Shown one piece after another: positions 49,141-60,653 of a DNA stretch of 64,000 bases (position 1 is the first letter of the stretch; each line of letters begins with the position of its first letter). Source of the stretch: the human T2T-CHM13v2.0 reference genome, Homo sapiens; assembly GCF_009914755.1 (NCBI RefSeq), contig NC_060943.1; one strand, written 5' to 3'. The position numbers were made by a program, and so were the translations under genes. The notes under the pieces are model-generated. The model saw nothing but the letters and a program-made list of their open reading frames with translations, was not told where the DNA came from and did no database searches.

Positions 49141-51393
49141 CTTATTTATTTATTTATTTATTTGAGACAGAGTCTCACTCTGTCGCCTAGGCTGGAGTGC
49201 AATGGCGCGATCTCAGCTCACTGAAACCTCTGCCTCCGAGGCTCAAGCAATTCTCCTGCCTCAGCCTCCCGAGTAGCTGGGATTACAGGCATGTGCCAAC
49301 ATGCCCAGCTAATTTTTGTATTTTTGGTAGAGATAGGGTTTCACCATGTTGGTCAGGCTGGTCTGGAACTCCTAGCCTCAGGTGATCCACCCACCTCAGC
49401 CTCCCAAAGTGCTGGGATTCCTCCCATCTTACACATGAAAAAACAGAGGCAGAGAGAGCACAGGGTCTTTCCCAAACTCATGTAAATCAGAATTATAGAA
49501 TCTCAAAGTTTTGAAGTTCTAGTGTGTTCCACCACCTGTCAAACTTTTTTTTTTTTTTTTGAGATGAGGTCTTGCTCTATCACCCAGGCTAGATTGCAGC
49601 GGTGCGATCATAGTTCACTGTCACCTTGACTTCTGGGGAGTGATCCTCCTGCCTCAGCCTCCCAAGTAGTTGGGACTGCAGGTGCATGCTTCCATAAGCG
49701 GACTTAGAAAATTTGAATGAGGCCGTACTGGGTGCCTCATGCCTGTCATCTCAACACTTTAGGAGGCTGAGGTGGGAGGATGGTTTGTGCCCAGGAGTTC
49801 CACGTGGCAGTGAGCTGTGATTACACCACTGCACAGCAACCTGGGCGACAGTGAGGCTCAGTCGTGTTGAAAAAAGAAAAGACAGAGAGAGAAAGAAAAG
49901 AAAAAGAGAGAAAGAAAGAAAAAGAAAGGAAAGAGAAAGAAAGCAAAAGAAAGAAAAGCAGAGATATGAGAGAAGGAAGGAAGGAAGGGAAGGAGAAAAA
50001 AGGAAAAAAAAAAAGAACTGAGACCCCATCTCTACAAAAGTAAAAAATTAGCTGGGTGTGGTGGGGCACACCTGTGATTCCAGCTACTCCAGAGGCTGAG
50101 GTGGGAGGATGGCTTGAGCCCAAGAGTTCGAGCCTGCAGTGAGCCATGATCATGCCACTGCACTCAGACCTGGGTGACACAGTTCATGTCAGCCACCTTC
50201 CAAAACAGGCAAGAATGCTATGTGTGTCATAGCCTATAATTTGTACCACATTAAGGTTGCTTTGATCTAGGGCAGAACTTATGAGTCCTTTTTTTTTTTT
50301 TTTTTTTTTTTGAGAAGGAGTCTTGCTCTGCCACCCAGGCTGGAGTGCAGTGGCGCGATATTGGCTCACTGCAAGCTCCGCCTCCTGGGTTCACGCCATT
50401 CTCCCACCTCAGCCTCCTGAGTAGCTGGGACTATAGGCACCCGCCACCATGCCTGGCTAATTTTGTTTTTATATTTTTAGTAGAGATGGGGTTTCACCGT
50501 GTTAGTCAGGATGGTCCCGATCTCCTGACCTCGTGATCCGCCCGCCTCGGCCTCCCAAAGTGCTGAGATTACAGGCGTGAGCCACTGCACCCGGCCAAAG
50601 CACCATTCTCTAAAATCCCCACCAAGCCTTTGTCTCCTTGCAGTTAGCTCCTCTCTGGGTGTGCTGCCTGGTGGAACCCTGTAATGTATTTTCTTTCTTT
50701 CTTTCCTTTTTTTTTTTTTTTTTTTTTTTTTGAGACGGAGTCTCACTCTGTCGCCCAGGCTGAAGTGCAGTGGTGCGATACCGGCTCACTGCAACCTCCG
50801 CCCCCCGGGTTCAAGCGATTCTCCTGCCTCAGCCTCCCGAGTGGCTGGGATTACAGGCGCCCGCCACCGCGCCCGGCTAATTTTTATATTTTTAGTAGAG
50901 ACGGGATTTCACCATGTTGGCCAGGCTGGTCTCAAATTCCTGACCTCAGGTGATCCACCTGCCTCAGCCTCCCAAAGTGCTGGGATTACAGACGTGAGCC
51001 ACCGCGCCCGGCCAACCTTGTCTCTTAAAAGTAAAAACAAAATGAGAGATAAGAAGAAATATTTTTGGAAGGCGCACAGGGGAATAAAGCCACCAGGGCA
51101 TTTTAATCATAAACTCCTTGTCCCATCAAGGCCATCCCTACCCTTTGCCCTCCCCTCCCCAAGACCTACCCTGCCCCGCCCCATCCTGGCCCCCTCCAGC
51201 CTTCATCCCCCTTTTTCCCCTCTTTCCCCACTTTGTCTCCTCTTCCCCACTTTATCACCTCTTGCCCCTGTGCGGCCCCGCCGAACTGGAAACGTTTCCA
51301 GCAGGTGATTCAGATGCGCCTGTGCAGGACTGTGACCAGGTGCAAGTCGCCCTCCCCTGACCTCCCTGTTTAGCCTGAATGATCCTTCCCAAG

Positions 51394-52085
51394 TGTGTTG
51401 CTCCATTCTCGCGCTGCTATAAAGAACTACCTGAGCTGGGCGCGATGGCTCACGCCTGTAATCACAGCACTTTGGGAGGCTGAGGCGGGTGGATCACCTG
51501 AGGTCAGGAGTTTGAGACCAGCCTGACTAACATGGTGAAACCCCATCTCTACTACTAATAATAAAAAAATTAGCCGGGCGTCATGGCTCACGTCTGTAAT
51601 TCCAGCTACTCAGGAGGCTCAAGCAGGAGAATCCCTTGAACCCGGGAGGCAGAGGTTGCAGTGAGCGGGGATCACGTCATTGCACTCCAGCCTGGGCAAC
51701 AAGAGTGAAACTCCGTCTCAAAAAAAAGAAAAAAGAAAAAAACTACCTGAGGCTGGGTAATTCACGAATAAAAGAGGTTTAATTGACTCACAGTTCTGCA
51801 GGCTGTACAGGAAGCAAGGCTGGGAGGCCTCAGGAAACTTATCAAGGCGGAAGGCTACTGGGGATCGAGTCAGTCTTCACTTGAAGCAGGAGGGATCAGG
51901 AGAGAGCACGAAGTGGGAAGTGCCGCACATCTTTAAACCATCAGATCTCCTGAGAACTATCACGAGAACAGCAAGGGGAAAGCCGCCCCCATGATCTAAT
52001 CACCTCCCAGCAGGTCCCTCTCCTGGTATTAGAAATTAAAATTGAACATGAGATTTGGTTGGGGACACACAGCCAAACCATATCA
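51394..52085 (+). mobile_element. MST-type MaLR solo LTR with nested Alu
   Basis: TG...gctgctataaagaactacctgag...aagaggtttaattgactcacagttc...ccaaaccatatCA; 5-bp TSD CCAAG at 51389-51393 and 52086-52090. Confidence 0.85.
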
Positions 52086-57699: not shown

Positions 57700-58466
57700 T
57701 TTTTTTTTGTATTTTTTAGGTGGACAGGAAGTAGAATTTATTGGTGAGTATTAAGAGGGGGGCAGCACATTGGAAGCCCTCATGAGTGCAGGGCCCACCA
57801 CTTGTCCAGAGGGCCACGACTGGGGATGTACTTGACCCCACAGCCATCTGGGATGAGCCGCTTTTCAGCCACCATGTCTTCAAATTCATCAGCATTGAAC
57901 TTGGTGAAGCCCCACTTCTTTGAGATGTGGATCTTCTGGCGGCCAGGAAACTTGAACTTGGCCCTGCGCAGGGCCTCAATCACACGCTCCTTGTTCTGCA
58001 GCTTGGTGCGGATGGACATGATAACTTGGCCAATGTGAACCCTGGCCACAGTGCCCTGGGGCTTTCCAAAGGCACCTCGCATTCCTGTTTGGAGCCTGTC
58101 AGCCCCAGCACAGGACGACATCTTGTTGATGCGGATGACGTGGAAGGGGTGGAGCCGCACCCGGATATGGAAGCCATCTTTGCCACAACTTTTTACCATG
58201 TACTTATTGGCACAAATTCGGGCAGCCTCCAGGGCTTCAGAGGACAGCTGCTCATATTCATCTGACACCATGTGGCCACAGAGCGGAAACTCATCCACTT
58301 TTGCCTTTTTCCGCCCCAGGTCAAAAATGCGAATCTTGGCATCAGGGACACCTCGGCAGAAGCGAGACTTTGGGTACGGCTTGTTCTTACAATACCGGTA
58401 ACAACGGGCGGGGCGGCGGCCCATGGCGACACCAGGATCTTCAGTGGCACACTGAAGGGAAAGAGA
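57700..58466 (-). pseudogene. RPL10P16: Processed RPL10 (uL16) retrocopy with intact 214-aa ORF (57780-58424)
   Basis: Intronless; 5' pyrimidine (TOP) leader; AATAAA at 57737-57742; poly(A); TSD AATTTTTTGT at 57681-57690 and 58467-58476; inserted in the central A-rich linker of an Alu. Symbol assigned from genomic position. Confidence 0.93.
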
Positions 58467-60653
58467 AATTTTTTGTATTTTTAGTGGAGATGGGGTTTCA
58501 CCATGTTGGCCAGGATGGTCTCAATCCGGAGACTTTTTAAGGTTTTCAGGGGGTTCATCCTGTGGCCAGATTCTATGCAGCAGGACAATTATGCTGGGGT
58601 GCCCTTCTCGGGCCTCTCTGGCTCACCTGTAATAATCCTTGTCTTTAGAGGGTGACTTAGACAAATTTTCAAGGAGCACATCCAGGAACCAGGCCCCATG
58701 TGTGACCAAAACTAAGCCTGGGTTGCTCTGCCCTATGGTTCCTAGCTGACCTAAGCTGTTTCCTTATCCCCACCCCATCCCCAAGGACTTACAAATATTT
58801 CCTGGAGGCACATCCCACAATCAGAGGCCTCTGCAGGATGACAGCCCACCTGTGGTCCTTCTGCTGGCCTCCTTCTTTGGCTGCGACCAGTCCCTACCAC
58901 TGGCTGGGACACAGGAAACTTTGCACTCAGAGCCTCCTATGAAGGAGCCCACATGGGGCTGTGGGCAAACTCAGGTCACCCTCTCCAGGCCTCTCTGGTT
59001 GGCCAGGTCCAATCTCTCTTCCTGGAGAGGGACTTATAAAAGTTTTCTGCGGAGGAGTCACATGTTAAAACAGGGACGCATGTGGGACCAGGGCTGAGCC
59101 TGAAGAGTACTCCACAGTCCTCCTTACTCAGCCCAGGCCAGTCACTACCATAGGAGAGGGACTTAGAAATATTTTTGGTGGGGGTGATACCTCCAGTAAC
59201 AGGTCCAATACGGCAGACAGGTGCAGGGAGCCCTTTTCAGGCCTCACAAGCTGGCCCAGCCCTCCGTCAAGAAGGAAACTTGAAAAAGAACACATCTGGG
59301 CTGGGCGCGGTGGCTCACGCCTGTAATCCCAGCACTTTGGAAGGCTGAGACAGGCAGATCACGGGGTCAGGAGATCAAGACCATTCCGCCTTACACGGTG
59401 AAACCCCATCTCTACTAAAAATACAAAAAACTAGCCGGGCATGGTAGCAGGCGCCTGTAGTCCCAGCTACTCGGGAGGCTGAGGCAGGAGAATGGCGTGA
59501 ACCTGGGAGGCAGAGCTTGCAGTGAGCCGAGATCGCACCACTGCATTCCAGCCTGGGCGACAGAGCGAGACTCCATCTCAAAAAAAAAAAAAAGAAAAAG
59601 AGCACATCTGGTGACCATGCCCCAAGTGGGACCACAGCAGAGTGTCCCCTGGCACCCCACCCTGGCATCCCTAGGTGGCCCATGCTAACTGGCCCATTGG
59701 AGGGGTTCTCAGAGGAAACATTAGAGGACCAACATGATACCACCCTCCCTGGGCTTCCCTGTCCACCCTGGGCCAGTCCTTGTCATCAGAGGGGGCCTAA
59801 GAAACATATGCTGTTGGTGCTTGCAAACTGACCCCAGAACACTTAAAAACTTTTTATTTGTATTTATTTATTTTTTTGAGATGGAGTCTCACTCTGTCAC
59901 CAGGCTGGAGTGCAGTGACACAATCTCGCCTCACTGCAACCTCCGCCTCCTGGGTTCAAGTGATTCTCCTGCCTCAGCCTCCTGAGTAGCTGGGACTACA
60001 GGTGTGTGCCACCATGCCCAGCTAATTTTTGTATTTTTAGTAGAGAAGGGGTTTCACCATGTTGGCCAGGATGGTCTCAATCCCTTGACCTTGTGATCCA
60101 TGTGACTCAGCCTCCCAAAGTGCTGGGATTACAGGTGTGAGCCACCGCGCACTGCCTACTTTTTTTTTTTTTTTCTAGAGACAGGGTCTCACTCTGTCAC
60201 CCAGGCTGGAGTACAGTGGAGCCATCATGGTTCACTGCAGCCTCAAACTTTTGGGCTCAAGCAATCCTCCCACCTCAGCCTCCCAAGTAGTAGCTGGGGA
60301 TTATAAATGCACGCCATCCTATCTGGATAATTTTCTAATTTTTAATTTTTTTTTCAAGAGATAGGATCCAGACTGGTTGCAGTGGCTCATGCCTGTAATC
60401 CCAGCACTTTGGGAGGCCAAGGCAGGTGGATCACTTGAGGTCAGGAGTTTGAGGCCAGCCTGGCCAACATGGTGAAACCCCATCTCTACTAAAAATACAA
60501 AAATGAGCCAGGCATGGTGGGGGGCGCCTGTAGTCCCAGCTACTCGGAAGGCTGAGGCAAGAGAATCGCTAGAACCCGGAAGGCGGAGGTTGCAGTGAGC
60601 CAAGATTGCGCCACTGCACTCCAGCCTAGGCGACAGAGGGAGACTCTGTCCCT

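What the first reader, a model, noticed from the sequence alone, without database searches (positions are those of the whole stretch)
51045..59830. Unrecognised fossil ~120-bp satellite-like array at the KZNF-cluster/MAN2B1 boundary
Seen: with Alus, the MST LTR and the RPL10 copy removed, much of the remaining DNA falls into ~110-130-bp monomers with rough consensus GGGACTTAGAAA-ATTTTC...GGCCCCATGTGGGACCACAGCCAAGCTCAGG...CCCTTCCTGGGCCTCCCTGGCTGGCCCAGGCCAGTCCCT..GGAG. It is clearest at 58530-59300 (seven anchors) and also visible at 54165-54620, 55970-56320 and 59600-59810. The MST LTR with a clean TSD interrupts a monomer, so the array is older. I cannot match it to alpha, beta, gamma, ACRO1, SATR or MSR1 repeats from memory. 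Inference: an ancient satellite relic at the cluster edge.
Basis: seen in the sequence. Interest (0 to 1): 0.75.

Follow-up and report, generated by a model that had tools for sequence, protein, structure and literature searches.

The report
Decayed 124-bp tandem array beside MAN2B1
The DNA between ZNF791 and MAN2B1 is the worn-down remnant of an old head-to-tail repeat of about 124 bases, part of which was later copied several times as a larger block; it is real but an ordinary kind of genomic fossil.

Summary
With its Alu removed, 58531-59847 shows k-mer lag peaks at about 127, 252 and 377 bp. A profile built only from the monomers of 58528-59791 finds 7 more plus-strand matches at E<=1e-3 in 51040-57600. 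It finds none on the minus strand, none in 100 local shuffles, and none below E 0.2 in the rest of the window. TRF misses the array. Monomers are about 52% identical to each other.

The anatomy is richer than reported. A block of several monomers, a roughly 340-bp non-monomer core and an inserted free Alu monomer with a GA-rich tail is itself repeated in tandem. There are three units, at 51045-53545, 54165-55190 and 55777-57600, 65-71% identical. A fourth remnant lies at 49697-50011, outside the finding. The MST LTR, the Alus and RPL10P16 came later.

Genome-wide DNA and pattern searches found only local copies.

My reading is a locus-specific, decayed tandem array with an old composite higher-order amplification. 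"Unrecognised" could not be tested, because no Dfam or RepeatMasker library was available. Two unit cores keep CpG-island-like composition, and one of them lies under a RefSeq enhancer.

Interest is low to moderate.

The parts
49697..50011 (+). Unit 0 remnant, outside the finding. It consists of a monomer head (GGACTTAGAAA...), a free Alu monomer and a GA-rich tail. Its upstream part is replaced by a minus-strand Alu.
   Evidence: Read. It is 79% identical over 184 nt to the unit-2 junction 55005-55200. TRF reports GA-rich repeats at 49869-50011.
51045..53545 (+). Unit 1. It holds a weak monomer and a C-rich stretch (51045-51282), monomers a (51283-51392), b (52087-52202) and c (52510-52633), the core (52634-52889 and 53209-53346), a half monomer (53347-53403) and a free Alu monomer (53433-53545). 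It is interrupted by the MST LTR and three Alus.
   Evidence: Self-blastn; profile hits; junction alignment.
51394..52085 (-). MaLR (MST-type) solitary LTR with a nested Alu (about 51416-51755), flanked by the 5-bp duplication CCAAG. It is a later insertion at the a/b monomer junction of unit 1 only.
Evidence: Sequence read. The uninterrupted homologue in unit 3 is 56072-56193.
54165..55190 (+). Unit 2. It holds monomers 54165-54261, 54262-54372, 54373-54492 and 54493-54611, the CpG-rich core (54612-54957), a half monomer (54958-55015) and a free Alu monomer (about 55030-55190), followed by a GA-rich tail.
   Evidence: The RefSeq enhancer rows 54521-54590 and 54544-55064 come from the hub's table.
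55777..57600 (+). Unit 3. It holds a C-rich stretch, monomers a (55973-56080), b (56081-56195), c (56196-56304) and d (56305-56323 plus 56881-56992), the CpG-rich core (to 57366), a half monomer (57367-57417) and a free Alu monomer (57436-57600). Two Alus lie at 56324-56880.
57601..58527 (-). Later insertions. A minus-strand Alu truncated at both ends (57601-57716 and 58466-58527) is split by the RPL10P16 retrocopy (57717-58465).
   Evidence: the hub's gene table; the long minus-strand frame 57780-58520.
58528..59847 (+). 3' block of 8.5 contiguous monomers, starting at 58528, 58651, 58785, 58907, 59030, 59158, 59271, 59702 and 59792. An Alu at 59300-59611 sits inside the seventh monomer, flanked by a 17-nt duplication with one mismatch.
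   Evidence: CpG observed/expected is 0.0-0.11.

Best explanation
The region is a locus-specific fossil tandem array that most likely does nothing now as an array.

Inferred history:
1. A sequence of about 124 bp was amplified head to tail on one strand, by unequal exchange or replication slippage. It then decayed until monomers were only about half identical to each other.
2. A 7SL-derived free Alu monomer retroposed into one monomer, about 20 nt after the monomer head.
3. A block of roughly 1.1-1.3 kb was amplified in tandem by unequal crossing-over. The block held several monomers, a roughly 340-bp core no longer recognisable as monomer, the free Alu monomer and its A/GA-rich tail. At least four units resulted (unit 0 remnant and units 1-3).
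4. An MST LTR, about ten Alus and the RPL10 retrocopy were inserted later, and at least one rearrangement truncated an Alu at the boundary between unit 3 and the 3' block.

What is shown: the periodicity, the strand-specific monomer homology, the tandem units sharing one junction with the Alu monomer, and the later insertions with target-site duplications.

What is inferred: the mechanism of amplification, the order and age of events, and the absence of present function.

One qualification: the cores of units 2 and 3 behave like CpG islands, so those two pieces may have been taken up as regulatory DNA.
For: - Lag peaks at about 127, 252 and 377 bp exceed the shuffles.
- A single-monomer query finds in-register neighbours.
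- A profile trained on the 3' block finds 7 plus-strand hits at E<=1e-3 in the upstream part, against 0 minus-strand hits and 0 in 100 shuffles. It finds nothing below E 0.2 in the other ~55 kb of the window.
- After 4 nhmmer iterations there are 21 monomer matches at E<=0.01. The spacing of successive monomer starts is 101-132 nt within contiguous runs.
- Mean pairwise monomer identity is 52%, and 68% to the majority consensus. Positionally equivalent monomers of different units are 69-81% identical. The monomer amplification is therefore older than the unit amplification.
- The units are colinear in self-blastn at 62-80% identity.
- All three units pass from the core end into a free Alu monomer at the same point. 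Pair identities are 65-71% and K2P distances 0.37-0.48. A fourth copy of that junction lies at 49697 and is 79% identical to the unit-2 copy.
- The MST LTR is present only in unit 1 and has a 5-bp duplication.
- Genome-wide DNA searches with 58531-59261, 54164-55010 and 55785-56323 return only local copies.
- Three two-part patterns built from monomer words give 0, 2 and 1 places in the genome, and none of these is related by profile.
Against: - TRF finds nothing with this period, so the array is at the limit of detection.
- Only about 2.0 kb of 4.8 kb is recognisably monomeric. The unit cores give no profile hit even at E<=50, so they may never have been monomers.
- The genome search uses a loose first look. 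It found 72%-identical 500-nt copies, but it would miss dispersed copies as diverged as the monomers are from one another. 'Locus-specific' is therefore not proven.
- No repeat library could be consulted.
- CpG retention in two cores argues against the whole region being inert.
Confidence: 0.75

Rival explanations
1. It is a catalogued repeat. On this view the monomers or the whole unit already have a Dfam or Repbase entry, either an old satellite or 'unknown' family or one of the interstitial arrays added from T2T-CHM13. The finding would then be real but known.
For: [quoted passage not shown] Their coordinates are in supplements I could not open.
Against: No dispersed or second array was found in the same genome. 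A family model normally rests on several copies or on a well-kept array, whereas these monomers are only about 52% identical. A period of 124 bp does not fit my recalled periods for alpha, beta, gamma, MSR1 or SST1. The chromosome 19 SST1 array is on the q arm.
Confidence: 0.2
2. It is the internal repeat region of an ancient transposable element or endogenous retrovirus. The monomers would then be a variable tandem segment of an interspersed family, and the 'units' would be separate insertions.
For: The unit layout loosely recalls composite retroposons: a C-rich stretch, tandem monomers, a unique core, an Alu-type piece and an A-rich tail. I also recalled a likeness of two short stretches to MER5-type elements.
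Against: - The units are head to tail, on one strand and at one locus. The tail of one unit runs straight into the next, and no other genomic copy was found.
- The 3' block continues the monomers without a core or an Alu piece.
- The MER5 lead failed. Thirty natural copies were fetched by a terminal motif, and the monomer profiles gave no hit to them below E 0.065.
- The only significant blastn hits of those copies to the region fall on the three Alu-monomer pieces.
Confidence: 0.05
3. It is a chance or compositional artefact. GC-rich, CT/GA-biased DNA would be giving apparent anchors.
For: TRF is silent. Monomer identity is low. The single lag peak (z 5.7) is exceeded by the most extreme of 200 shuffles (5.98).
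Against: There are harmonics at 2x and 3x the period. Hits are strand-specific and in register. The profile gives 7 hits against 0 in 100 composition-preserving local shuffles, and no comparable hit in about 55 kb of flanking sequence.
Confidence: 0.02

Closest known systems
Decayed tandem repeats that TRF misses (the class targeted by model-based finders such as ULTRA; recalled, and my search did not list that paper)
   Same: Head-to-tail copies on one strand with a fixed period. They are too diverged for TRF but recoverable with a profile.
   Different: Here a second, larger periodicity is superimposed, and a retroposed Alu monomer is part of the larger unit.
Tandem 'composite elements' of T2T-CHM13, such as 5SRNA_Comp: a transposable element plus other subunits repeated as one unit (passages of bioRxiv 10.1101/2021.07.12.451456)
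   Same: The repeating unit combines a transposable-element piece (a free Alu monomer) with non-TE subunits, and it was amplified in tandem after the element inserted.
   Different: Those arrays are large and nearly identical; the passage gives 128 units at high similarity. This one has 3-4 units at 61-79% identity and is far older. I could not check whether it is among the listed composites.
Higher-order repeat organisation of satellites such as alpha satellite
   Same: Monomers differ strongly from each other (about 52%), while positionally equivalent monomers of different units are closer (69-81%).
   Different: The period is 124 bp rather than 171 bp. The array is not AT-rich (GC 53-62%), is not centromeric, and has only a handful of units.
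SST1 / NBL2 macrosatellite
   Same: A GC-rich tandem unit of kilobase size on chromosome 19.
   Different: The chromosome 19 SST1 array is on the q arm, whereas this locus is at 12.7 Mb on the p arm. No copies were found elsewhere in the genome, although SST1 is on 16 autosomes. A direct sequence comparison was not possible.

Membership tests
Tandem repeat array (minisatellite/satellite type) | Copies lie head to tail on one strand | tested here: met
   All profile hits at E<=0.05 are on the plus strand, and successive monomer starts are 101-132 nt apart in contiguous runs.
Tandem repeat array (minisatellite/satellite type) | Periodicity above chance | tested here: met
   Lag peaks at about 127, 252 and 377 bp with z of 5.7, 3.8 and 3.6, against 200 dinucleotide shuffles.
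Tandem repeat array (minisatellite/satellite type) | Monomers homologous beyond composition | tested here: met
   Held-out test: 7 hits at E<=1e-3 against 0 in 100 shuffles.
Satellite DNA in the strict sense (long homogeneous arrays) | Many copies, long arrays, further arrays of the same family elsewhere | tested here: not met
   About 21 recognisable monomers. No other array was found in the genome at the sensitivity.
Tandem composite / higher-order unit | A unit made of different subunits, including a transposable-element piece, repeated in the same order | tested here: met
   Colinear units. The same junction between core end and Alu monomer is present in 4 copies.
Alpha, beta, gamma, MSR1 satellites | Family-specific period (171, 68, 220 and 37 bp; recalled values) | tested here: not met
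   The observed period is 113-134 bp, mode about 123.
SST1 | Sequence match to the SST1 model | not testable with these tools
   No repeat library was available. Only position argues against membership.
Any catalogued Dfam/Repbase family | Significant match to a library model | not testable with these tools
   No such library is offered. Rfam gave only Alu/SRP-type hits.
Interspersed transposable-element family | Dispersed copies elsewhere in the genome | tested here: not met
   Only local copies were found for three queries covering 2.1 kb. Sensitivity is limited to roughly 70% identity or more.
MER5-type hAT element (recalled likeness) | Sequence similarity to natural copies | tested here: not met
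   Against 30 copies the best profile E is 0.065, on the opposite strand. Significant blastn hits fall only on Alu pieces.

The most novel reading that the evidence does not exclude
The array is an uncatalogued tandem family of early-mammalian age that survived only at the ZNF791/MAN2B1 boundary. Two cores of its later composite units (54493-54957 and 56881-57366) have stayed unmethylated in the germ line since the units were copied. They now act as CpG-island-type regulatory elements, an enhancer or boundary between the zinc-finger cluster and MAN2B1.

The basis is as follows. CpG dinucleotides are conserved between these two cores as often as other dinucleotides (18 of 34 and 18 of 31, against 285 of 489), with CpG observed/expected of 0.72-0.73. 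In unit 1 and in the 3' block the CpGs have decayed. A RefSeq enhancer row covers 54521-55064.
Probability: 0.15. Interest if true: 0.45.

Novelty: new member of a known kind. Interest (0 to 1): 0.22.

Why it matters
Mostly as annotation. It accounts for about 10 kb of intergenic DNA that would otherwise look like unique sequence peppered with Alus. It also shows that profile methods recover arrays that TRF cannot. The nested order of events gives a clean relative chronology for one locus: monomers first, then the free Alu monomer, then unit amplification, then the MST LTR, Alus and retrocopy. If the CpG-island-like unit cores prove to be unmethylated and active, the locus would be a small example of regulatory DNA born from a tandem duplication at the edge of a zinc-finger gene cluster.

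Tried and rejected
- TRF at minimum score 30 found no array of this period. Its 134-179-bp rows at 53548-54140 are adjacent Alus.
- The ungapped repeat finder was swamped by Alus.
I made no further attempt by that route and used patterns and DNA queries instead.
- Rfam at gathering and at E<=1 gave only SRP/Alu-derived families. ARAGORN found no tRNA.
- Coding reading. There are 35 stop-free frames of 90 aa or more. Seven were scanned against Pfam at E<=1 with no family found. The two long frames over the unit cores are not held in the same frame, because the copies differ by single-base gaps (alignment). I put them down to GC-richness.
- The MER5 likeness, recalled from memory, was rejected.
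- GC skew of the monomers is near zero, so I dropped the idea of a G-rich pause or R-loop element downstream of MAN2B1.
- A semi-global alignment test for colinearity of the 3' block with the units was uninformative, with scores near zero. A monomer-level order test was only suggestive: best offset 57.4% against 49-52% for the others, reached by 135 of 5000 permutations.
- Literature. A search for MAN2B1, ZNF791 and 'tandem repeat' gave 1 paper, on horse breeds and irrelevant by title and abstract. The published T2T repeat paper is not held under three identifiers.
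Full report
**Observation**

I read 51000-60400 and ran TRF on 49000-62000 at its most permissive score. TRF reports no array with a period near 120 bp. Its only long-period rows (134-179 bp at 53548-54140) are adjacent Alus.

Comparing 50400-61000 with the rest of the window marked the interspersed repeats, mainly Alus. After masking these and RPL10P16, a sensitive self-blastn gave 13 off-diagonal matches. Three are short-range matches inside 58598-59807, at offsets of 129, 376 and 1141. 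Ten are longer colinear matches between three blocks further upstream.

**Periodicity**

I excised the Alu at 59300-59611 at its 17-nt target-site duplication and counted 5-mer matches by lag in the remaining 1005 nt of 58531-59847. Peaks stand at 125-130 (z 5.7), about 252 (z 3.8) and about 377 (z 3.6).

In 200 dinucleotide shuffles the largest z over all lags had a 95th percentile of 4.78 and a maximum of 5.98. The first peak alone is therefore rare but not unheard of. The harmonics make it convincing.

One monomer (59030-59157) used as a lone nhmmer query finds 58654, 58785 and 59159 in register, at E 1e-4 to 2e-3. Cutting at the anchors gives pieces of 123, 134, 122, 123, 128, 113, 119, 90 and 56 nt.

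**Held-out test**

I built a profile from the eight monomers of 58528-59791 and searched the whole window on both strands. Outside the training stretch it hits twelve plus-strand places at E<=0.05. All lie between 51291 and 57419, and six are below 1e-4. The best hits elsewhere in the window are E 0.22 and 0.82.

On 51040-57600 with young insertions removed there are 7 plus-strand hits at E<=1e-3 and none on the minus strand. One hundred shuffles that keep local dinucleotide content give no hit at E<=0.05 (best 0.26).

**Anatomy**

Iterating the profile on the spliced sequence gives 21 monomer matches. Their E-values are circular by then, but their spacing is informative: 101-132 nt in contiguous runs.

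Monomers are about 52% identical pairwise and 68% identical to their majority consensus.

The larger structure is a tandem unit present three times: 51045-53545, 54165-55190 and 55777-57600. Each holds, in order:
- four consecutive monomers, which I call a to d. In units 1 and 3 a C-rich stretch precedes them; in unit 1 no profile hit marks monomer d;
- a core of about 340 bp that the profile does not recognise even at E<=50;
- a half monomer and the first 20 nt or so of the next monomer;
- a 7SL-derived free Alu monomer with an A/GA-rich tail.

The three units enter the Alu monomer at the same point. They are 65-71% identical over that stretch, with K2P distances of 0.37-0.48.

A fourth copy of exactly this junction lies upstream at 49697-49880. 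It is 79% identical to the unit-2 copy over 184 nt and is followed by the same kind of GA-rich tail. The structure therefore begins about 1.35 kb before the finding's start.

Positionally equivalent monomers of different units are 69-81% identical, against about 52% for monomers in general. This is the signature of a higher-order amplification of an already diverged array.

The 3' block (58528-59847) is 8.5 monomers without a core or an Alu piece. Its fourth to seventh monomers match a to d in order somewhat better than other offsets do (57.4% against 49-52%). Only 135 of 5000 order permutations reach that value. This is a hint, no more, that the block is an older copy of the same unit.

**Later events**

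- The MST-type LTR (51394-52085) has the 5-bp duplication CCAAG on both sides. It sits at the a/b monomer junction of unit 1 only, and the homologous stretch of unit 3 is uninterrupted.
- About ten Alus were inserted.
- RPL10P16 lies inside a minus-strand Alu that is truncated at both ends, between unit 3 and the 3' block. That junction has therefore been rearranged.

**Dating (inference)**

Free Alu monomers are, from general knowledge, confined to primates and their close relatives. The unit amplification is therefore younger than that lineage's origin and older than the MST insertion. The K2P distances fit tens of millions of years.

The monomer amplification is older still. At about 32% divergence from consensus it is comparable with the oldest repeats recognised in mammals.

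**Relatives elsewhere**

The window's own assembly (3.1 Gb) could be searched.
- DNA queries 58531-59261, 54164-55010 and 55785-56323 returned only themselves and the local paralogues, down to 69-72% identity.
- Three two-part patterns made of monomer words gave 0, 2 and 1 places. None of the three places is related by profile.

**What it is not**

- Rfam finds only Alu/SRP-type matches, and there is no tRNA.
- Seven long stop-free frames have no Pfam match. The frames over the cores are not conserved between copies.
- A likeness to MER5-type elements that I recalled was tested against 30 natural copies and rejected.
- The period does not fit alpha, beta, gamma or MSR1 repeats (recalled periods).
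- The chromosome 19 SST1 array is on the q arm, according to passages of the T2T repeat preprint.
- Whether the sequence has a Dfam entry could not be tested. That preprint's supplements are closed, and the published paper is not held.

**An unexpected feature**

The cores of units 2 and 3 have 60-62% GC and CpG observed/expected of 0.72-0.73 over about 470 bp. The 3' block has 0.0-0.11.

Eighteen CpGs sit at the same aligned positions in both cores. CpG dinucleotides are conserved between the two as often as other dinucleotides (18 of 34 and 18 of 31, against 285 of 489). Towards unit 1 they are lost (6 of 33 and 7 of 28, against 47%).

This is how CpG islands behave. The hub's table places a RefSeq enhancer at 54521-55064, over the unit-2 core. 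I cannot test methylation or activity here.

**Verdict**

This is a real, very old, locus-specific tandem array of about 124-bp monomers. It carries a later composite higher-order amplification that includes a free Alu monomer. The kind is known, and this instance is probably unannotated, though I could not verify that.

Interest is low to moderate.

Noticed in passing
window 49697-50011: A fourth copy of the junction (monomer head, free Alu monomer, GA-rich tail) lies upstream of the finding's start. It is 79% identical to the unit-2 copy, closer than units 2 and 3 are to each other at this junction (67%).
   Followed up: yes
window 54493-54957 and 56881-57366: The unit cores are CpG-island-like: GC 60-62% and CpG observed/expected 0.72-0.73. 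Eighteen CpGs are shared, and CpGs show no excess decay between the two copies. The unit-2 core lies under a RefSeq enhancer row (54521-55064).
   Followed up: partly
window 54830-54844: By eye, the word ACCCTAGGTGGCGCT in the unit-2 core resembles the CTCF core motif (recalled consensus). The unit-3 homologue looks degraded. No motif scan was run.
   Followed up: no
window 57601-58527: RPL10P16 is inserted, with a T-rich duplication, into a minus-strand Alu that lacks both of its ends. On the left this Alu abuts the unit-3 free Alu monomer and on the right the first 3' monomer, which suggests a deletion or rearrangement at this boundary.
   Followed up: partly
window 53433-53545: The free Alu monomer of unit 1 lacks a stretch of about 31 nt that is present in the copies of units 0, 2 and 3 (alignments). 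This could be a deletion or a conversion by another Alu.
   Followed up: no
window 54478-54915 and 56746-57237: Stop-free plus-strand frames of 145 and 163 codons run across the cores of units 2 and 3. They have no Pfam match, and single-base gaps between the copies shift the frame, so they are probably a by-product of GC-richness.
   Followed up: partly
window 59848-61018: Once the Alu-type repeats at 59848-60945 are discounted, the array ends within about 70 nt of the annotated 3' end of MAN2B1 (61019, minus strand).
   Followed up: no
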